Source of the DNA: Shigella phage SP21535 | DNA length: 64,000 nt | Reading direction: 5' to 3' (one strand) | Sequence record: PQ615101 | In this document: in pieces, positions 3,447-63,616 of the stretch | Position numbering within the stretch: position 1 is the first letter of the stretch | Layout of the letters: each line of letters opens with the position of its first letter | Notes under the pieces: model-generated | Databases searched by the model: none | What the model was told of the DNA's origin: nothing | What the model saw: the letters and a program-made list of their open reading frames with translations, nothing else | Position numbers and translations under genes: made by a program

Positions 3447-5012
3447 TTAGATACCTTTAACATATACACGTCTAAAGTAAGCGTTTTTACCAAGGCTATT
3501 CAGAATAGAAGGCATACCGCTCTGGATGCGAGAAGCCGGAGCCTGAGCAGCGGATTCTGCAAATGGGTTGATACCGATACCGTAACGAGTTTTGAATCCC
3601 ATTACCGGTTGGAAGTTCTTCGGATCGGAACCACGCAGCGGAGTCAGAGCTACATATGGAGCATAGTAAATACCAGCATCCATTTCGTTCGGACCTTTAT
3701 AACCTACAGTGAAATAATCCTGTTTAGCATACTGGTCGATATATACACGGTATTTACCACCCAGAACACCAGCAAATACTGACTTGGTAGTATCAGTGTT
3801 AAAGCCGGTAGCCAGACCCTGTGCAGCATAAGAAATGCCGGTATCAACTGAAGCCAGAACGTTAACTACGTTACGGGAAGCGATAATGAAGTTACCTTCG
3901 CCGCGACCAGTCTGACGAGCAATTTCAACTGCTTCTTTGTCAATCTGGAACAACAGAGCTTTAAAGGATTCACCCGCCCAGCGAGCACCACGAATATCAA
4001 TCGGATCCTGGAAGTCAAATACACCAGCTTTAGAACCTGGAGTCAGGGTCATACCAGATTTACCAACCTGAGCTGAGTAGTTAATCCAATCAACAACTTC
4101 ACGGTTGATTTCCAGCATGATTTCTGTAGCCAGAATACCAGACAGTTCAGCATCAGCATCCATACCGTGAACAGCGCGGAGGTCTTGTGCTAATTCGATA
4201 GAGTAAGCAGCTTTCAGCTGGCGAGATTTAGCTTCGATAACTTGTTTATCGATACGGAAGCCCATTTCATTCCATGGGTTATCGGTAGAACCGTTGAAAC
4301 TTTCCTGAAGTTCAGCGATAGAAGTAGCCATACCTTCAGCGATTTCTACCAGTGCACCAGCTTCCATTTGTTTCTTAATTTCAGCATCTAATTTAGCTGC
4401 ATCAGTTGCGCTTGAACTAATTGTTACTACAGCGGAAGCTTGCAGATACACAGTACCAGTGTCCTGGAAGAAGTGAGTATAGATATCACCTACAACGGTT
4501 TGTGTGCTAGCAGCCAGAGCTGTGAATTTCTTAGCAGCACCCTGACCAGAGAACATTGCATCTGGACCATACATTGGGTGGAATGCTTCTTTAGCACCGG
4601 AAGCGATTGGGTCTTTACCGTATACTGCGCGCATTGCGAATACCTGGCCAGTCGGGCTGTTCATCGGCTGAACACCGCAAATATCGAAAGCAATCAGGTT
4701 AGGAATAGCACGACGTACCATACCCATAACAGCTGGGCCAATCTGAGTTACTGCGCCAGAAGTCTGACCTGCAGCGATGTTGGTAGCATTGTAACCGTGG
4801 TCACCACCGATTTCAGCTTCTGTTAAGAAAGAACCGAATGCCTGAGCAATTTTTTCGTCTTTATATTCCGGAGCTGTCTGGAAATCTTTTTCCTGGTTTT
4901 CAAAGATTTTAGCGATAATCGCTTGTTTGCTATTAGCAATTTCCGGTAAACCTTCACCTTCCAGTAATGGCTTCCATTTGTTCAAAAGTTCAGCTTTAGT
5001 TTTGATAGTCAT
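3447..5012 (-). CDS. 23: major capsid protein gp23
   Basis: 521 aa; sequence recognised as T4 gp23 precursor. Confidence 0.95.
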   Translation of the reverse strand: MTIKTKAELLNKWKPLLEGEGLPEIANSKQAIIAKIFENQEKDFQTAPEYKDEKIAQAFGSFLTEAEIGGDHGYNATNIAAGQTSGAVTQIGPAVMGMVRRAIPNLIAFDICGVQPMNSPTGQVFAMRAVYGKDPIASGAKEAFHPMYGPDAMFSGQGAAKKFTALAASTQTVVGDIYTHFFQDTGTVYLQASAVVTISSSATDAAKLDAEIKKQMEAGALVEIAEGMATSIAELQESFNGSTDNPWNEMGFRIDKQVIEAKSRQLKAAYSIELAQDLRAVHGMDADAELSGILATEIMLEINREVVDWINYSAQVGKSGMTLTPGSKAGVFDFQDPIDIRGARWAGESFKALLFQIDKEAVEIARQTGRGEGNFIIASRNVVNVLASVDTGISYAAQGLATGFNTDTTKSVFAGVLGGKYRVYIDQYAKQDYFTVGYKGPNEMDAGIYYAPYVALTPLRGSDPKNFQPVMGFKTRYGIGINPFAESAAQAPASRIQSGMPSILNSLGKNAYFRRVYVKGI

Positions 5013-40662: not shown

Positions 40663-41000
40663 GACAAGAAACCGGGTCGCTACCGGTAAGTCGTCGGACT
40701 GATGTTCCCTGGGTAAGGAATTGCGTTAATAAATCTTTATGATTTGTTGATGCCCTCTTACATCACAGCAGAAACGGCGCACCGAATTATCGATTCGAGG
40801 AAATATCTTTGCCGTAAGCCGAGTAGCGTTTTTGACGGAACGTTCGGATATGGTCGAGATATGGCCTTTTAAAAATATTAAGTAGCGTCAACTGCTTAAT
40901 AACCGGGTTCGAATCCCGGCGTTTCGTACAAACACTTGCCTTAGCAGGTGGAACCCCGACAAGGTTGCCGCAAGGCTTTAGCCCCGACCGAAAGGTTGGG
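40663..41000 (+). ncRNA. structured stable RNA region (T4 species 1/2 RNA-like, tRNA-like T-arm)
   Basis: No ORF; GC-rich helices; CCGGGTTCGAATCCCGG T-arm-like element at ~40902-40918; precedes terminator. Confidence 0.4.
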
Positions 41001-41006
41001 GCTTTT
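40981..41006 (+). terminator. rho-independent terminator, GNRA-capped hairpin
   Basis: GCCCCGACC-GAAA-GGTTGGGGC followed by TTTTT. Confidence 0.65.
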
Positions 41007-41515: not shown

Positions 41516-41523
41516 CATTCTTA

Positions 41524-41549
41524 GCCCCAGCCGAAAGGTTGGGGCTTTT
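41524..41549 (+). terminator. rho-independent terminator, near-identical copy of 40981 hairpin
   Basis: GCCCCAGCC-GAAA-GGTTGGGGC followed by TTTT. Confidence 0.65.
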
Positions 41550-42044: not shown

Positions 42045-42575
42045 ATGTCTCTTTATACCGAACTGAATGAAACTTCCGAAAAATCTTTTGATGGTATCTT
42101 ATCAATAATGCAAAAGCAGGTATTAGAACAGCTTAGTGAAGCCGCAAGCAACGGACATAAGGCTTGTCGAATCCCAAGCCCACATCGTCGCCTGTATGAA
42201 CGCCCTCTTATTAATTGGCTAGAAAGCGAAGGTCTTACAGTTAAGATTTGTCCTGCCAAATTTGATGTCCCACGTATTCTTAATATTTACTGGGATAAAC
42301 CGATTGAGAAACCGATTGAGAAAAGTGAACCTTGGGTTGTCAATGTAAAAACATATGATAATGGATGCTCACTTGAGGTGTCTGCTGTAATTAAAGGCAC
42401 TCACGGTGAAAAATCGTGGGGTTGGCCTGGTAAAGATAAAGAAATCGTGTTAAGTGTAAAAGCTACTAGTATTAGTACTCCTATAGCTAAAAGCATTATC
42501 GCCGCCGCTGTTGAAGAAGCTGAACGAATTTGTAAAATTAAAAATAGTTTACATCTCTTAAATAGCATGATATAA
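42045..42575 (+). CDS. hypothetical protein
   Basis: 176-aa ORF, GAGGA RBS; contains PIEK PIEK tandem motif. Confidence 0.5.
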   Translation: MSLYTELNETSEKSFDGILSIMQKQVLEQLSEAASNGHKACRIPSPHRRLYERPLINWLESEGLTVKICPAKFDVPRILNIYWDKPIEKPIEKSEPWVVNVKTYDNGCSLEVSAVIKGTHGEKSWGWPGKDKEIVLSVKATSISTPIAKSIIAAAVEEAERICKIKNSLHLLNSMI

Positions 42576-42618
42576 TTCTTCCACAGATTTTAATTTTTAA
42601 TCAACCTAAGGAAATACT

Positions 42619-43212
42619 ATGAACACACTGAAGAAAATTGTTGAGTTTATTCGCACTAAACTTGGTTCTGCTATGGCTAAAAATCTATCTGTTGAAGAAC
42701 AGTATACTGCTGCAGCAGCAAAACTGCTTGATAAAATTAAAGATCTAAAAACTGCTTCTGTTAAATCTATTAATGAAGAAAAACGTATTCGTGAACTTGT
42801 TATCGAAAAGAATCGACAAGCCGAATCAAAAGAGCGTGAAATTCGCAAACTTCTTTCCGAAGGTCAAGATGTAACAATGCATGCTAAGCTCGGTTTACTA
42901 TATCGTCGAACAGCTGAGCAGTTGACTACTAAAGCTGATGGTTATGCTGAAATGCGAATTGAAATCGCCAAGAAAGTAGTTGAGTTAGATGATGCTCGTC
43001 AAGAACTTGCAGTTAAATTGGAATATATCCGTGAAACTCGTGCAGCAAATGCCCTTGGAATTAGTACTGCCGATGATGTAGTTGAAATCGCAGCGCTAAC
43101 TAAGGTTGATATTGAAGATACTCTTGCTCGAGTTGAAACCTTTAACGGTAATATTTCCGGGGTTGAAACTACCTCTGCCGATGTTCAGGAATACATTAAT
43201 TCTCTGAAATAA
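42619..43212 (+). CDS. hypothetical coiled-coil protein (PspA-like helical repeat pattern)
   Basis: 197 aa, almost entirely heptad-like helical sequence. Confidence 0.45.
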
Positions 43213-43253
43213 TGATAAGGGGCTTCGGCCCCTATTACTTGGAGTAAATAGGA

Positions 43254-43862
43254 ATGAAAATGCAAAGTGATTTCAATTCAATGTTTGAAGAGTTCCAAAG
43301 ACAGGTTGATGTTCCAGACCAATTACTAAATGCTCTTAAACGTATGGCAGAAGGACGTAATTACTATTGGGGGTCTTCATATGAAACTGATGAAAGTCTT
43401 TCTGGAAGATTTTCTAGAGGTAAAAAGTCTTTAATACGTCCTGGAATACTCATTAAAAGTATTGAATCAATTCATTCATTGACGTGTGATTTTGATGTTG
43501 AATTTACTGATTTCATTTCTCCTGAATGGACGGTTTGTTATTTAAATGACGATTATGATTATCTTGGCGTTTATAGTTTAAGTGACGCATGGTTTAAACG
43601 TAATTTACAAAAGTCAAATTTGTTCTATATTGATACTACGGTAAAATTTCAGGGAAAGAAATATTTCTTTACTCTTATAGTTGATTCTGAAACAAAGCAT
43701 GAAAATAAACGTATTCTTAGTAAAAAGAATATCTTAACTATTGTTGATGATCTTTTTGATAAATTCGTGGAAAATCCTAATTTTGAAAGCGATTTATTAT
43801 TAGAAAAATTTGTTAAGGAATGTAGAGAATATGTCAAAGCCATCACTATACCTTCCAAGTAA
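43254..43862 (+). CDS. hypothetical protein
   Basis: 202-aa ORF with RBS. Confidence 0.5.
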   Translation: MKMQSDFNSMFEEFQRQVDVPDQLLNALKRMAEGRNYYWGSSYETDESLSGRFSRGKKSLIRPGILIKSIESIHSLTCDFDVEFTDFISPEWTVCYLNDDYDYLGVYSLSDAWFKRNLQKSNLFYIDTTVKFQGKKYFFTLIVDSETKHENKRILSKKNILTIVDDLFDKFVENPNFESDLLLEKFVKECREYVKAITIPSK

Positions 43863-44223
43863 ACCTGTGAAGTATGAACCAAAGCGTCAGCTAATTTCTA
43901 CTGATGTATTAATAGGTCCTGTTATACTCATATCATTTGTAATTCTATTGATTATTGGAGGTGTTTTAGATGTTATGACTGATATTGATTCTGGCGAAAT
44001 ACTTGTATTAATGCTAATTCTTCCATTAATAGTTCCATTTTTATTAGTACCTGTAAATTGGGTAGGATACTGGTATCAAGGAAGGCATTATCGTAAACGC
44101 GTACGTGATTGGAAAGCACAGTGTAAAAAGATTAAAAAGGAATATCAGCTTAAACTTGCTGCGTATGAATTTGATGAAATTATGAAATTTGTTAAGGAAT
44201 CACGATGCAAAAGCCAAAACTAA
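43810..44223 (+). CDS. small membrane protein (paralog family member 1)
   Basis: Two hydrophobic helices then basic C-terminus ending ...FVKESRCKSQN; true start uncertain. Confidence 0.45.
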   Translation: MLRNVENMSKPSLYLPSKPVKYEPKRQLISTDVLIGPVILISFVILLIIGGVLDVMTDIDSGEILVLMLILPLIVPFLLVPVNWVGYWYQGRHYRKRVRDWKAQCKKIKKEYQLKLAAYEFDEIMKFVKESRCKSQN

Positions 44224-44570
44224 ATAAAGTCAAATATTCGCTTCCTGAGTCATTTTTAATTTTTGCTGTGGCGTTGGCTGCAGCTCTTGCGGGTAGTCTT
44301 TTTGGATTGTTAATTGACGACTGTTTTATTTTAAACATCGATGGCACAGTAAATATAATAGAAGTTTGGAGTGAACTTCGCTATACTAAAATTATTTCAT
44401 TATTTTCATTCTTTTGTATCATTCTATATTTTCATTATGATAATTTTAAAATAAATTGGCAAAGAAAAAAGGATTACAAAATACAATTAAAAGAATATAA
44501 TAGCTACATGTCTTATATTGAAAATGAATCAATGAAAGAGTTTGTGAGTGATTGTAGGAAAATCAGATGA
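44205..44570 (+). CDS. small membrane protein (paralog family member 2)
   Basis: Hydrophobic helices then C-terminus ...FVSDCRKIR. Confidence 0.45.
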   Translation: MQKPKLNKVKYSLPESFLIFAVALAAALAGSLFGLLIDDCFILNIDGTVNIIEVWSELRYTKIISLFSFFCIILYFHYDNFKINWQRKKDYKIQLKEYNSYMSYIENESMKEFVSDCRKIR

Positions 44571-45055
44571 TTTTAAAAACTCGCTGGTATGATTTAGATG
44601 ATGGGGATGATGGCATTCCAGTTGATAGAGTTGACTGGAATGGCTGTTCCGAAGATATGAAAAATTTGCTGATTAGGGAGTTTAGAATGGGATATCAACC
44701 AGTTAAGCCATCTACTGCAACAGATGATAAATTCGTATGTATTCATAATGGTCGCGCTAAATTAACGAACGCTGATTGGTTCACAGATAAAATTATGATT
44801 CTGTGGTATATTATTAGTCTTCCTGTGACATCATTCGTATTTTACTTTTTTATAAAAAATCCAATGGACAGAATAGGAGATTGGATTCTTTTAACCATAC
44901 TTGTTAATATTTTTACAGCAGCAATATTATCTGGGATATGGTACACGTTCATTGAAATGCCATGGCGGCTACGCAGACAACAAAAGATTTTTGATGAAAA
45001 GAAATATACTCAAAATTTAAATAACTTTATCACTGAATGCAGGAAATTAAAATGA
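44567..45055 (+). CDS. small membrane protein (paralog family member 3)
   Basis: Hydrophobic helices then C-terminus ...FITECRKLK. Confidence 0.45.
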   Translation: MILKTRWYDLDDGDDGIPVDRVDWNGCSEDMKNLLIREFRMGYQPVKPSTATDDKFVCIHNGRAKLTNADWFTDKIMILWYIISLPVTSFVFYFFIKNPMDRIGDWILLTILVNIFTAAILSGIWYTFIEMPWRLRRQQKIFDEKKYTQNLNNFITECRKLK

Positions 45056-45492
45056 AAACACTATCAGCTGGTATTATCTTTATGACAGAAGATAAAGATT
45101 TATTCATGGGACGGGTTACTGGTTCTCGTAAGCCTGGAATGATGGCACATCGCTGGGATATCCCAAAGGGCCGCGTAGAAAATTCTGATTTAAGCGCACT
45201 AGATGCAGCACGAAGAGAATGTTTAGAAGAGACTGGTTTTAGCAATTATAATCCAGACCTTCTAGAAGACCTAGGTGTATTTAAATATTCTAGTAATAAA
45301 GACTTACAGTTATTTTATTATACGATTCCAGTAGAGCATGAGATGTTTAGAAATTGCCATTGCGAGTCTTATTTTGAAAATAAAGATGGCGTTATGATTC
45401 CAGAGATGGACGCTTTTGCTCTTATTCCTCGTACTCAGTGGCAATATGTGATGGGTCCTTCACTTTACCGAATAATGAACAACCTCTTTTAA
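45052..45492 (+). CDS. nudE: Nudix hydrolase NudE
   Basis: Nudix box GRVENSDLSALDAARRECLEETGF; ATG 45052 with AGGAAA RBS. Confidence 0.8.
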   Translation: MKTLSAGIIFMTEDKDLFMGRVTGSRKPGMMAHRWDIPKGRVENSDLSALDAARRECLEETGFSNYNPDLLEDLGVFKYSSNKDLQLFYYTIPVEHEMFRNCHCESYFENKDGVMIPEMDAFALIPRTQWQYVMGPSLYRIMNNLF

Positions 45493-46023
<531 letters not shown>

Positions 46024-62398: not shown

Positions 62399-62662
62399 AT
62401 GTTTAAAGTATATGGTTATGATAGCAACATTCATAAATGCGTGTATTGTGATAATGCAAAACGTCTCTTGACTGTGAAGAAACAGCCGTTTGAATTTATC
62501 AACATTATGCCGGAAAAAGGTGTTTTTGATGATGAGAAAATTGCTGAGCTTCTGACTAAACTAGGTCGTGATACTCAAATCGGATTGACGATGCCTCAGG
62601 TATTTGCTCCTGATGGAAGTCATATTGGTGGATTTGACCAATTGCGGGAATACTTTAAATGA
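62399..62662 (+). CDS. nrdC: glutaredoxin/thioredoxin NrdC
   Basis: 87 aa; CVYC active-site motif. Confidence 0.8.
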   Translation: MFKVYGYDSNIHKCVYCDNAKRLLTVKKQPFEFINIMPEKGVFDDEKIAELLTKLGRDTQIGLTMPQVFAPDGSHIGGFDQLREYFK

Positions 62663-62874
62663 TGCTTGAAGGAACTGATTATATCCATGACTACCGCGGA
62701 AGCGCGGTATATGTAGGTGATGAGGTTGCAGTTTATTATGGGTATGGAACTTTGATGACAGCAAAGGTTATTCAAATTAAAAATAATCGTGCTAAACTTG
62801 AAGTTTATTATTCTAACGGTGAAAAGTCTATTTCTAAATGGAAATACGGCGATTGTATGGTCAAACTGGGGTAA
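62659..62874 (+). CDS. hypothetical protein
   Basis: 71-aa ORF overlapping nrdC stop. Confidence 0.45.
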   Translation: MMLEGTDYIHDYRGSAVYVGDEVAVYYGYGTLMTAKVIQIKNNRAKLEVYYSNGEKSISKWKYGDCMVKLG

Positions 62875-62876
62875 AT

Positions 62877-63047
62877 ATGATTTACGATATTAGTGTATCA
62901 AGAACTCCGTCAATGGTTACTATTCCAGCTGAAGAATTAGATCGTCTTCAGAAAATTGAAGAACTTCTTTGGGAAATTGAATATGATTTGCCATCAGGAC
63001 TAGAATCCTGGATTGATTATGAAGAACTTAATAAGCTTCGGGGTTAA
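62877..63047 (+). CDS. hypothetical protein
   Basis: ATG 62877 (track start 62838 upstream). Confidence 0.4.
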   Translation: MIYDISVSRTPSMVTIPAEELDRLQKIEELLWEIEYDLPSGLESWIDYEELNKLRG

Positions 63048-63169
63048 ACCTTGGTGGGCGGCTAGATGGGAAACTGTAGAGCCAGAGCCGGAAGAACCGG
63101 TTTACACTGATGAAGAAACAGTATATAATGAACCTACGATAAATGACTTAATTGATACGGAGATGGGAC

Positions 63170-63616
63170 ATGATTACAGTAGATAAGTGGTTTAGAATTA
63201 ATCGTGCTGATACCGGGCTGTGTAATTATTGGCCGGAACTTAGTGCAGGTACTGTCTTTAAAGTTCGTGAACTCGCAAAAGAATGCGAAGATGATATAGA
63301 ACCTGATACTGGAATTATTGAAATTGAACTTTCTGATGGAAAGATTATTAACATCTACGATAAGCCAATTACGTATTGGTGCTTATGGAATACTGAATCA
63401 GTAGAAAATGGCGAAATTGAAGAAGTTGTAGAACGAGCTGATCAAGCTCTTCATAAACCTAAAGCCGCTTTTCAAGGTGAACGCATTTCATACGCATTAG
63501 CTAAATTAGCTGCACAAGAAAATAACGATGGTTATGAAGGAAATTTGATGCAAGCTGCGGCAGAATATATTGAATGGCTTGAAACTCAAATTTCTTTTTC
63601 TGACCGAGCGTTTTAA
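63170..63616 (+). CDS. hypothetical protein
   Basis: ATG 63170 after GGAG; track start 63152 is TTG. Confidence 0.45.
   Translation: MITVDKWFRINRADTGLCNYWPELSAGTVFKVRELAKECEDDIEPDTGIIEIELSDGKIINIYDKPITYWCLWNTESVENGEIEEVVERADQALHKPKAAFQGERISYALAKLAAQENNDGYEGNLMQAAAEYIEWLETQISFSDRAF

What the first reader, a model, noticed from the sequence alone, without database searches (positions are those of the whole stretch)
43810..45055. Three consecutive small membrane proteins with a conserved basic C-terminal motif
ORFs 43810-44223, 44205-44570 and 44567-45055 each have two hydrophobic helices and end with a similar tail (...F[VI]-x-[ED]-[SC]R-[CK]K...). The genes overlap at start/stop, suggesting translational coupling. 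They could be superinfection-exclusion or membrane-targeting factors.
Basis: seen in the sequence. Interest (0 to 1): 0.35.

Follow-up and report, generated by a model that had tools for sequence, protein, structure and literature searches.

The report
T4 e.2–e.5 proteins share a tail
These are the T4-type phage genes e.4, e.3 and e.2: early, dispensable inner-membrane proteins of unknown function whose conserved C-terminal tail also sits on the soluble neighbour e.5 and on other small proteins in related phages, which suggests a shared docking motif.

Summary
The window is a Tequatrovirus (T4-like) genome, and the three ORFs are orthologues of T4 e.4, e.3 and e.2. The first most likely starts at ATG 43831, not TTG 43810. 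Each has exactly two hydrophobic helices and a predicted N-in/C-in topology, and the genes overlap. The shared tail is F-[VI]-x-[ED]-[SC]-R. It occurs four times in all six frames of the 64 kb, each time 3-11 residues before the stop of an adjacent gene. Across seven to eight T4-like genera the core F-[ILV]-x-x-C-[RK] ends unrelated proteins encoded between e.6 and the lysozyme gene. Cys and Arg codons vary synonymously, so selection acts on the protein. Cytoplasmic segments are conserved; membrane helices and periplasmic loops are variable. e.4 and e.3 are tandem duplicates. Published T4 data show early transcription, detected proteins and no fitness cost on knock-down. No known family matches (Imm, holins, Psp partners). 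Best reading: membrane-anchored early proteins presenting a portable cytoplasmic docking helix. One candidate partner is e.6, whose model resembles PspA/Vipp1. Biological role is unknown; exclusion is untested and not favoured.

The parts
42548..42576 (+). sigma-70-type early promoter-like site (TTTACA-17-TATAAT, TG extension) upstream of e.6
   Evidence: 11/12 match. No TATAAATA late promoter lies between here and 45495. T4 RNA-seq classes e.2-e.6 as early RNAs (PMC9697503 supplement).
42619..43212 (+). e.6 orthologue (197 aa), first gene of the run; candidate PspA/Vipp1/ESCRT-III-like protein (context and candidate partner)
   Evidence: PHROG 1203. AF2 single-sequence model has a long helical hairpin with pLDDT >90 over residues 30-130. 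Foldseek PDB ranks 1-14 are all Vipp1/PspA/ESCRT-III, best E=3.4e-4, TM 0.55. Sequence methods are negative. Homologues are present in 1106 phage records.
43254..43862 (+). e.5 orthologue (202 aa), soluble, fourth carrier of the tail motif
   Evidence: PHROG 2607. No hydrophobic segment. Tail ...EKFVKECREYVKAITIPSK*. Tail conserved in Mosigvirus, Dhakavirus, Jiaodavirus and RB43 positional equivalents.
43806..43821 (+). copy 1 of the exact 16-nt repeat AAATTTGTTAAGGAAT (e.5 tail / SD of e.4); motif codons FVKECR = 43809-43826
43831..44223 (+). e.4 orthologue (130 aa): N-in, TM1 about aa 29-49 (43915-43977), 7-aa acidic loop, TM2 aa 57-75 (43999-44055), basic juxtamembrane stretch, amphipathic C-helix, tail FVKESRCKSQN*
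   Evidence: PHROG 2604 E=3e-70; 98 homologues, all starting MSKP; KD and charge; conservation by region
44185..44200 (+). copy 2 of the 16-nt repeat (e.4 tail / SD of e.3); motif codons FVKESR = 44188-44205
   Evidence: the e.5/e.4 and e.4/e.3 junctions are homologous DNA (tail + SD + ATG + xCAAAGCCA), 379 nt apart, in both Tequatrovirus and RB69
44205..44570 (+). e.3 orthologue (121 aa): TM1 aa 17-37 (44253-44315), loop, TM2 aa 63-77 (44391-44435), basic stretch, tail FVSDCRKIR* (motif 44541-44558)
   Evidence: PHROG 2330 E=8e-58
44567..45055 (+). e.2 orthologue (162 aa, intact): conserved cytoplasmic N-domain (aa 1-44, 44567-44698), TM1 aa 76-96 (44792-44854), TM2 aa 106-129 (44882-44953), tail FITECRKLK* (motif 45026-45043)
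   Evidence: PHROG 2203 E=3e-79. Exhaustive HMM search found 15 clusters. Invariant columns are I2 W7 D11 G16 V22 W24 C27 and F154 I155 C158 R159. AF2 model.
45037..45492 (+). nudE (Nudix hydrolase), overlapping the e.2 stop (alternative start ATG 45052 in an ATGA overlap)
   Evidence: Pfam NUDIX E=1e-13. The order e.2-(ORF130c)-nudE-e is conserved in five genera.
45495..45515 (+). two T4 late-promoter motifs TATAAATA upstream of the lysozyme gene e (45529-46023)

Best explanation
SHOWN: The three ORFs are the Tequatrovirus orthologues of T4 e.4, e.3 and e.2. They lie in one early-transcribed, overlapping gene run: e.6-e.5-e.4-e.3-e.2-nudE-e. Each is predicted to be an inner-membrane helical hairpin with both ends in the cytoplasm. 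The membrane helices and periplasmic loops vary freely. The cytoplasmic N-terminus, the basic juxtamembrane stretch and an amphipathic C-terminal helix ending in F-[IV]-x-x-C-R are strongly conserved. The same C-terminal element ends the soluble protein e.5, and in related genera it ends several other unrelated small soluble and two-helix membrane proteins encoded between e.6 and the lysozyme gene. e.4 and e.3 arose by tandem duplication of a unit that includes the junction (upstream tail + ribosome-binding site + start codon). e.2 is the oldest and most widespread membrane member. INFERRED: the hairpin is mainly an anchor, and the tail is a portable protein-level docking or assembly motif through which these proteins engage one common cytoplasmic partner at the inner face of the membrane. 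The partner could be a phage protein or a host protein. One candidate is the adjacent e.6, whose predicted fold resembles PspA/Vipp1; the arrangement would then be analogous to LiaI-LiaH or PspB/C-PspA (these systems recalled from my own knowledge). The tail codons also carry the Shine-Dalgarno sequence and start of the next gene, so the run is probably translationally coupled. The module is dispensable in laboratory infection, so its role is accessory (host takeover, membrane maintenance or host-range); that role is not shown.
For: Identity and synteny: 96.8% DNA identity to Tequatrovirus genomes and the T4 map; PHROG hits E=3e-70, 8e-58 and 3e-79. Topology. Motif specificity: 4 hits against about 0.45 expected, all at the C-termini of adjacent genes; none elsewhere in a further 133 kb of phage PD112. 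Protein-level selection: Arg is encoded by AGA, CGA, AGG and CGT, and Cys by TGT and TGC, across copies and genera. The motif is kept whether the next gene overlaps, abuts or lies 30-44 nt away, and whatever that gene is. In the e.2 family (22-36% identity) the tail residues F, I, C and R are among only 11 invariant columns, while the TM helices have 0-1. Portability: the tail is found on e.5-like, e.4-like, e.3-like, RB69 ORF133c, e.2 and three small soluble proteins in Mosig-, Dhaka-, Gapriver-, Kanagawa-, Jiaoda- and Pseudotevenvirus. Conservation by region: cytoplasmic segments 0.02-0.3 bits, against 0.4-1.5 bits for TM helices and loops. Duplication: exact 16-nt repeat 379 nt apart plus homologous start regions; hhalign and bridging BLAST; a natural in-register e.4::e.2 fusion (P0143). 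Expression and dispensability: early RNAs, proteins detected by MS (PMC9697503 supplement); CRISPRi-ART knock-downs 'Not Fit' (PMC11879866 supplement); T4's own e.2 is truncated. e.6 fold.
Against: No binding partner is shown, and no complex prediction or experiment was possible. Homology between e.2 and e.3/e.4 rests mostly on the 15-17-residue tail (prob 64%). hhalign of the deep e.2 profile against the Tequatrovirus-only e.4 alignment finds nothing, so the tail could be convergent or transferred rather than inherited. e.4's tail has S/I/V where the others have Cys, and its Cys lies two residues later. Part of the motif (K/E-E, R-K) is dual-coded with the next gene's Shine-Dalgarno sequence, and K, R and E are generally enriched in the last 8 residues of coupled genes in this window. 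The e.6-PspA link rests on a single-sequence model of a coiled-coil hairpin (rmsd above 20 Å) with no sequence support.
Confidence: 0.5

Rival explanations
1. The shared 'motif' is mainly a by-product of nucleic-acid constraints. The last codons of each gene carry the ribosome-binding site and start of the next gene, and they form a repeated junction cassette that promotes duplication and shuffling. On this reading the peptide itself has no function.
For: AAGGAA or AGGAAA lies inside every tail 4-10 nt before the next ATG. There is an exact 16-nt repeat at two junctions. K, R and E are enriched in the last 8 aa of coupled genes generally. Natural fusions and deletions have end-points in these genes.
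Against: F, I/V and C are not explained by a Shine-Dalgarno sequence. Arg uses four different codons and Cys both codons while the amino acids stay fixed. The motif persists when the downstream gene differs, when it is 30-44 nt away (IME08 ORF118, Merci gp14), and when the motif lies 11-25 aa from the stop (e.5, RB43 ORF268w). The tail is the most conserved part of e.2 at 22-36% identity.
Confidence: 0.12
2. They are superinfection-exclusion or immunity proteins that act at the membrane or periplasm against incoming phage DNA or ejection proteins, like T4 Imm.
For: They are small early two-helix inner-membrane proteins, as Imm is described (my own knowledge). In e.4 the periplasmic loop is the most variable region, which could reflect an arms race. 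They lie in an accessory, variable region.
Against: No similarity to the Imm family or to any defence or exclusion model. Loops are only 7-9 aa in e.4 and e.2. Conservation is concentrated on cytoplasmic parts. The same tail occurs on soluble proteins. T4 itself carries a truncated e.2. From my own knowledge, not tested here, T4 exclusion is attributed to imm and sp.
Confidence: 0.1
3. The tail is a timing signal: a degron for a host AAA+ protease (ClpXP, FtsH or Lon), or a processing site, that limits the lifetime of a set of early proteins.
For: The same short C-terminal element sits on heterogeneous proteins, as expected of a portable degron. The tail is basic and close to the C-terminus. 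I-x-E in many copies resembles the T4 prohead-protease site (L/I)-x-E (my own knowledge).
Against: The distance from the C-terminus varies from 0 to 25 residues. The invariant residues are F, I/V/L, C and R, not the terminal residues. Glu at the fourth position is replaced by G, M, Y or K in many members, so the I-x-E site is not conserved. Proteins of three different accumulation classes (early, middle, late) all carry it.
Confidence: 0.1
4. They are holin-like or lysis-timing proteins, remnants of a holin-endolysin cassette upstream of the lysozyme gene e.
For: Two transmembrane helices, N-in/C-in, and a charged C-terminus, located just upstream of the endolysin gene; this layout resembles class II holins (my own knowledge).
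Against: Early transcription, with no late promoter before 45495. No holin family hit in Pfam or PHROGs. The T4-type holin gene is elsewhere (annotated 'holin' at PD112 62592-63248). Knock-down has no fitness effect. e.2 is truncated in T4.
Confidence: 0.04
5. The tails bind each other rather than a third partner. The C-terminal amphipathic helices of e.5, e.4, e.3 and e.2 bundle, possibly bridged by a metal or a disulfide through the conserved Cys, and tether soluble e.5 to the membrane.
For: There is one conserved Cys per tail, with F and C on the same helical face (i, i+4). The helices are amphipathic (moment 0.38-0.56). The genes are co-translated neighbours. e.2 has a second invariant Cys in its N-domain.
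Against: Genera with only one or two tail-bearing proteins exist. e.4-type tails lack the Cys at the shared position. No structural prediction of a complex was possible.
Confidence: 0.14

Closest known systems
Bacteriophage T4 ORFs e.4, e.3, e.2 (and e.5), annotated 'conserved hypothetical, predicted membrane protein'; PHROGs 2604/2330/2203/2607; precomputed Pfam PF26873 (e.4) and PF26896 (e.2)
   Same: Orthologues: same order, same lengths, 82-97% identity within Tequatrovirus.
   Different: In the T4 reference, e.2 is broken by -1 and +1 indels and is annotated as 102 aa; here it is intact at 162 aa. The shared tail, its presence on e.5 and its spread over other proteins are not part of any annotation or paper I could find.
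T4 Imm (superinfection immunity protein)
   Same: A small, early, non-essential phage protein of the inner membrane (my own knowledge; an imm gene is annotated in the relative PD112).
   Different: No sequence or profile similarity. No comparable conserved cytoplasmic tail. Exclusion activity was not tested here.
Small membrane partners of PspA-family proteins (B. subtilis LiaI for LiaH; E. coli PspB/PspC for PspA)
   Same: Small membrane proteins encoded next to a PspA-like gene, presenting a cytoplasmic segment to it (the systems are from my own knowledge; the e.6 fold resemblance is).
   Different: No homology to LiaI, PspB or PspC. e.6 has no sequence-level PspA signal. e.5 lies between e.6 and the membrane proteins. 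The interaction is purely hypothetical.
Class II holins (e.g. phage 21 S21)
   Same: Two transmembrane helices, N-in/C-in, a charged C-terminus, and a position near an endolysin gene.
   Different: Early rather than late expression, no holin family match, dispensable, and the T4-type holin t is present elsewhere.
Repeated junction or regulatory cassettes that mediate modular shuffling in hyperplastic regions of T4-type genomes (described in the T4 literature; recalled from memory, not read here)
   Same: A short repeated sequence at gene boundaries that includes translation signals, associated with duplication, deletion and fusion of small ORFs.
   Different: Here the repeat lies inside coding sequence and encodes a peptide that is itself under amino-acid-level selection.

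Membership tests
T4 e.4 / e.3 / e.2 orthologous groups (PHROG 2604, 2330, 2203) | Full-length profile match | tested here: met
   E=3e-70 (1-130/130), 7.8e-58 (1-119/122) and 3e-79 (1-160/166)
T4 e.4 / e.3 / e.2 orthologous groups (PHROG 2604, 2330, 2203) | Synteny e.6-e.5-e.4-e.3-e.2-nudE-e | tested here: met
Imm superinfection-immunity family | Sequence or profile similarity to Imm | tested here: not met
   No Imm-type family among Pfam or PHROG hits at E<=1 / 0.1
Imm superinfection-immunity family | Blocks DNA entry of superinfecting phage | not testable with these tools
   Needs an exclusion assay
Class II holins | Two TMDs, N-in/C-in, charged C-terminus | tested here: met
Class II holins | Late expression with the endolysin | tested here: not met
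   No late promoter upstream; early RNA class in T4
Class II holins | Match to a holin family model | tested here: not met
Class II holins | Required for, or able to trigger, lysis | tested here: inconclusive
   Indirect evidence only: knock-down 'Not Fit'; T4 e.2 naturally truncated
Membrane partners of PspA-family proteins (LiaI, PspB, PspC) | Homology to LiaI, PspB or PspC | tested here: not met
   No such Pfam or NCBIfam hit
Membrane partners of PspA-family proteins (LiaI, PspB, PspC) | Encoded next to a PspA-family gene | tested here: inconclusive
   The e.6 model matches Vipp1/PspA/ESCRT-III structures but has no sequence support. e.6 is two genes upstream of e.4.
Membrane partners of PspA-family proteins (LiaI, PspB, PspC) | Physical binding to the PspA-like protein | not testable with these tools
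   No complex prediction or experiment available
Rhodanese-type sulfurtransferase (the name carried by some database entries for e.3 and e.4 homologues) | Rhodanese domain or profile match | tested here: not met
   The name appears. There is no NCBIfam or Pfam sulfurtransferase hit, and the proteins are two-helix membrane hairpins.

The most novel reading that the evidence does not exclude
F-[ILV]-x-x-C-R is a portable C-terminal docking tag. Through it, T4-like phages would recruit a changing set of early proteins (soluble e.5-type proteins, several two-helix membrane anchors, and small soluble proteins) to one hub at the cytoplasmic face of the inner membrane. That hub would be the phage-encoded PspA/Vipp1/ESCRT-III-like protein e.6, giving a phage-specified membrane-maintenance or membrane-remodelling module.
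Probability: 0.15. Interest if true: 0.75.

Novelty: new variant of a known kind. Interest (0 to 1): 0.45.

Why it matters
T4 is the best-studied virulent phage, yet roughly half of its genes, including e.2-e.8, have no known function. A short, testable peptide motif shared by at least four adjacent early proteins, and by other unrelated proteins in seven to eight genera, gives a concrete experimental handle: mutate three residues, or pull down with a 15-mer. If the partner proves to be the widely conserved e.6, and e.6 is truly PspA/ESCRT-III-like, this would reveal a phage-encoded membrane-stress or remodelling system. If the partner is a host protein, it would identify a new host-takeover target. 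If nothing binds, the case still documents how tandem duplication with overlapping junctions spreads a C-terminal peptide among genes.

Tried and rejected
(1) Family searches with all six proteins against Pfam, NCBIfam, PADLOC and PDB sequences gave only sub-threshold noise.

(2) hhalign of Tequatrovirus-only alignments was uninformative (Neff about 1.3). It became moderately informative only after adding Mosigvirus sequences.

(3) HMMER with a tail-only profile against all window ORFs is too insensitive for a 7-residue motif. A regex count with shuffles replaced it.

(4) The AF2 model of e.2 (pLDDT 72) gave no meaningful PDB fold match (best E=0.5).

The last job went to e.6 instead.

(6) A reading of the tail as a T4 prohead-protease or capsid-targeting-like site (…EFIAE↓) was rejected. 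Glu is not conserved (G, M, Y or K in many members), and these are early proteins, three of them membrane-embedded.

(7) The 'sulfurtransferase' label on some database homologues was rejected, as no profile supports it. CRK happens to resemble a rhodanese active-site loop (from memory), and I did not establish where the label comes from.

(8) Literature searches for e.2-e.6, UniProt accessions and phage PspA homologues found no functional study. The Miller 2003 T4 review is not held.

(9) A viral-contig scan for FIKECRK* returned e.2 and e.3 homologues in five of eight loci. One hit was an internal chance match, one a very short ORF, and two were 7-aa fragments left unexplained.
Full report
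**What the region is.** The 2.9 kb around the finding is 96-97% identical to Tequatrovirus (T4-like) genomes. The gene order matches T4: e.8/e.7-like, e.6 (42619-43212), e.5 (43254-43862), e.4, e.3, e.2, nudE (45037-45492) and lysozyme e (45529-46023). The three ORFs of the finding are therefore orthologues of T4 e.4, e.3 and e.2, with PHROG 2604, 2330 and 2203 at E=3e-70, 8e-58 and 3e-79. All homologues of the first ORF begin MSKP and are 125-131 aa long. T4 annotates 393 nt for it, and AAGGAA lies 10 nt upstream of ATG 43831. The true start is therefore very probably 43831, not the TTG at 43810.

**Checking the observation.**
- Kyte-Doolittle scans (15- and 19-residue windows) give exactly two hydrophobic peaks in each protein and none in e.5.
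- The flanks follow the positive-inside rule for an N-in/C-in hairpin. In e.4 the N-terminus is +3, the 7-residue loop TDIDSGE is -3, and the C-terminal 55 residues are +9.
- An AlphaFold2 model of e.2, built on a 12-sequence alignment, has helices 75-97 and 103-161 (pLDDT 72).
- The genes overlap by 32, 19 and 4 nt, and e.2 overlaps nudE.
- In a six-frame translation of the whole window this pattern occurs four times, against 0.4-0.5 expected from composition and shuffles. All four hits lie 3-11 residues before the stop codon of four adjacent genes.
- A further 133 kb of the close relative PD112 contains no such C-terminal tail.

**Are the proteins related?** Single-sequence BLASTP gives e.4/e.3 E=0.001 over 99 residues, and e.3/e.2 E=0.013 over the tail only. 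Profiles built from Tequatrovirus sequences alone are too shallow to help. tblastn against phage genomes showed that e.5, e.4 and e.3 also exist in Mosigvirus (RB69 type), and that e.2 exists in Mosig-, Dhaka-, Gapriver- and Kanagawavirus. With Mosigvirus sequences added, hhalign gives two results:
- e.3 against e.4: probability 62%, E=7.7e-5, over the whole cytoplasmic C-terminal region.
- e.3 against e.2: probability 64%, E=6.6e-5, over the tail.

Dhakavirus ORF133 bridges e.3 (E=1e-8 to 7e-11) and e.4 (0.002-0.005). Jiaodavirus gp20 matches e.4 at 7e-7, and RB69 ORF133c matches e.2 at 0.001 over TM2 plus tail.

At the DNA level, the e.5/e.4 and e.4/e.3 junctions are homologous. They share an exact 16-nt repeat, AAATTTGTTAAGGAAT, 379 nt apart, followed after a 5-nt indel by ATG-xCAAAGCCA. 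This is seen in both Tequatrovirus and RB69. e.4 and e.3 are thus tandem duplicates of a unit that includes the junction. The 5-nt indel explains why e.4's tail reads …KESRCK instead of …KECRE/K. A natural phage (UFV05/06) carries an in-register e.4::e.2 fusion with e.3 deleted (P0143).

**Is the tail a protein feature or a nucleic-acid feature?** Each tail contains the Shine-Dalgarno-like AAGGAA or AGGAAA of the next gene. K, R and E are somewhat enriched in the last eight residues of coupled genes in this window generally. Part of the 'basic' character is therefore dual coding. Four observations nevertheless point to selection on the amino acids:
- Arg is encoded by AGA, CGA, AGG and CGT, and Cys by TGT and TGC, in different copies and genera, while the amino acids stay fixed.
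- F, I/V and C are not explained by a ribosome-binding site.
- The motif persists when the next gene is different, when it is 30-44 nt away, and when the motif lies 11-25 residues from the stop.
- An exhaustive HMM search of 1.8 billion representative proteins found only 15 clusters for e.2. In an alignment of members at 22-36% identity, the 11 invariant columns are seven in the N-terminal domain (I2, W7, D11, G16, V22, W24, C27) and four in the tail (F154, I155, C158, R159). The two membrane helices have none or one.

**The tail is portable.** In the loci I fetched, F-[ILV]-x-x-C-[RK] ends six kinds of protein:
- e.5-type soluble proteins immediately downstream of e.6, in Tequatro-, Mosig-, Dhaka- and Jiaodavirus. 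In RB43 the equivalent protein has EKFIHSCKK 25 residues from the end.
- e.4-type hairpins.
- e.3-type hairpins.
- RB69 ORF133c, another two-helix protein.
- e.2.
- Three small soluble proteins: IME08 ORF118, PEi20 ORF137 and Merci gp14.

In RB69 the block e.6-e.5-e.4-e.3 is separated from e.2-ORF130c-nudE-e by about 3 kb of other ORFs. The tandem arrangement seen in this window is therefore specific to Tequatrovirus.

**Where the constraint lies.** Within Tequatrovirus, column entropy is 0.02-0.3 bits in the cytoplasmic N-termini, basic juxtamembrane stretches and tails. It is 0.4-0.9 bits in the membrane helices and 1.5 bits in the e.4 periplasmic loop. The C-terminal 18-residue windows are amphipathic as helices, with moment 0.38-0.56. 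In a helix, F and C (i, i+4) and I and R (i+1, i+5) form one compact face (inference).

**Expression and dispensability, from papers.**
- In T4, e.2-e.6 RNAs are classed as early and all five proteins were detected. e.4 and e.5 accumulate early, e.2, e.6 and NudE in the middle class, and e.3 late (PMC9697503, supplementary files 4 and 6).
- In the CRISPRi-ART screen, e.2-e.6 are listed as 'predicted membrane protein/unknown'. Prior essentiality is given as 'UNKNOWN' and knock-down as 'Not Fit' (PMC11879866, supplementary files 8 and 15).
- In the window, a strong sigma-70-like promoter precedes e.6 (42548-42576), and the only late-promoter motifs are at 45495 and 45508, before e.
- The T4 reference carries a -1 and a +1 indel in e.2, which removes TM2 and the tail from the annotated product.

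**Comparison with known families.** No Pfam, NCBIfam, PADLOC or PDB-sequence match exists for any of the four proteins. The e.2 model has no structural neighbour.
- Imm: no similarity, and the conserved parts are on the wrong side of the membrane.
- Class II holins: the topology fits, but expression is early, no family model matches, and the genes are dispensable.
- 'Sulfurtransferase' labels in some records have no profile support.

**The upstream neighbour e.6.** Its single-sequence model is a long helical hairpin plus three short helices (pLDDT above 90 over residues 30-130). Its 14 best PDB matches are all Vipp1/PspA/ESCRT-III (best E=3.4e-4, TM 0.55). Sequence methods do not support this, and coiled-coil matches are generic, so I give it about even odds. 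e.6 is far more widespread than the tail-bearing genes, with 1106 phage records.

**Most likely mechanism.**
- Shown: these are early, coupled, dispensable, two-helix inner-membrane proteins whose conserved surfaces are cytoplasmic. A C-terminal helix motif under amino-acid selection is shared with soluble neighbours. e.4 and e.3 are tandem duplicates.
- Inferred: the hairpin is an anchor, and the tail is a docking or assembly motif for one common partner at the inner face of the membrane (confidence about 0.5).
- More speculative (about 0.15-0.2): the partner is e.6. The arrangement would then resemble the small membrane partners of PspA-family proteins.
- Rivals: tail-tail bundling, a degron, a pure junction by-product, exclusion, and a holin-like role. 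They are scored separately.

**Verdict.** The proposed function, exclusion, is unsupported. The genes themselves are known hypothetical T4 ORFs. I found the shared portable tail described nowhere, and it offers a cheap experimental entry point.

Noticed in passing
window 42619-43212 (+): The e.6 orthologue (197 aa) is the first gene after an early promoter. Its single-sequence AF2 model is a helical hairpin whose top 14 PDB fold matches are all Vipp1/PspA/ESCRT-III (best E=3.4e-4, TM 0.55), with helix lengths like Vipp1 alpha0-alpha5. There is no sequence-level support. Homologues occur in 1106 phage records, and none is named PspA among the close BFVD hits.
   Followed up: partly
window 44854 and 44932 (equivalent to T4 NC_000866 e.2, L001 about 3491-3961, - strand): The T4 reference e.2 differs from the window by a -1 deletion in an A6 run and a +1 insertion 78 nt downstream. 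The annotated 102-aa product therefore lacks TM2 and the tail. 102-aa versions also occur in other sequenced phages (P0192, P0193), while most Tequatroviruses have the intact 162-aa form.
   Followed up: partly
P0143 (Escherichia phage vB_EcoM-UFV05/06; hit H50): A natural in-register fusion of the e.4 N-terminus (to ...DVLIGPV) with e.2 from ...TSFVFYFF onward, deleting e.3 entirely. The hybrid keeps a two-helix-plus-tail architecture.
   Followed up: partly
L009 4790-5584 (AV110), L016 5022-5603 (WG01), L010 7357-8152 (RB69): Immediately downstream of e.3 in Mosig- and Dhakavirus lies another run of two to three consecutive small soluble proteins. They share a different C-terminal tail, ...G(A/G)W(V/I)SSSxxC*.
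   Followed up: no
window 40980-41003 and 41523-41546 (+); 43215-43235: Two near-identical GC-rich terminator-like hairpins (AGCCCC(G/A)(A/G)CCGAAAGGTTGGGGCT + T-run) lie 543 nt apart, upstream of the e.7/e.8-like genes. A GC-rich hairpin (AGGGGCTTCGGCCCCT) lies between e.6 and e.5. These may be repeated regulatory cassettes.
   Followed up: no
database homologues of window 43831-44570: Several NCBI records name e.3 and e.4 homologues 'sulfurtransferase' (one 'DNA primase'). e.6 and neighbouring genes are sometimes named 'host specificity protein'. No profile supports these names.
   Followed up: partly
L004 3930-4435 (PEi20); L009 4060-4455 (AV110); L010 6627-7022 (RB69): Annotated starts are too far downstream. 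The PEi20 e.2 ORF extends upstream to include the conserved N-domain. AV110 e.4 is annotated as 59 aa, but the ORF encodes a full 131-aa e.4. RB69 e.4 probably starts at ATG 6627 (MSKPTLYM...).
   Followed up: partly
L018 12085-12108 and L019 11473-11496: Two 14-kb IMG/VR contigs contain an exact FIKECRK* coding string immediately preceded by a stop codon in frame. This may be a frameshifted or degraded tail-bearing gene.
   Followed up: no
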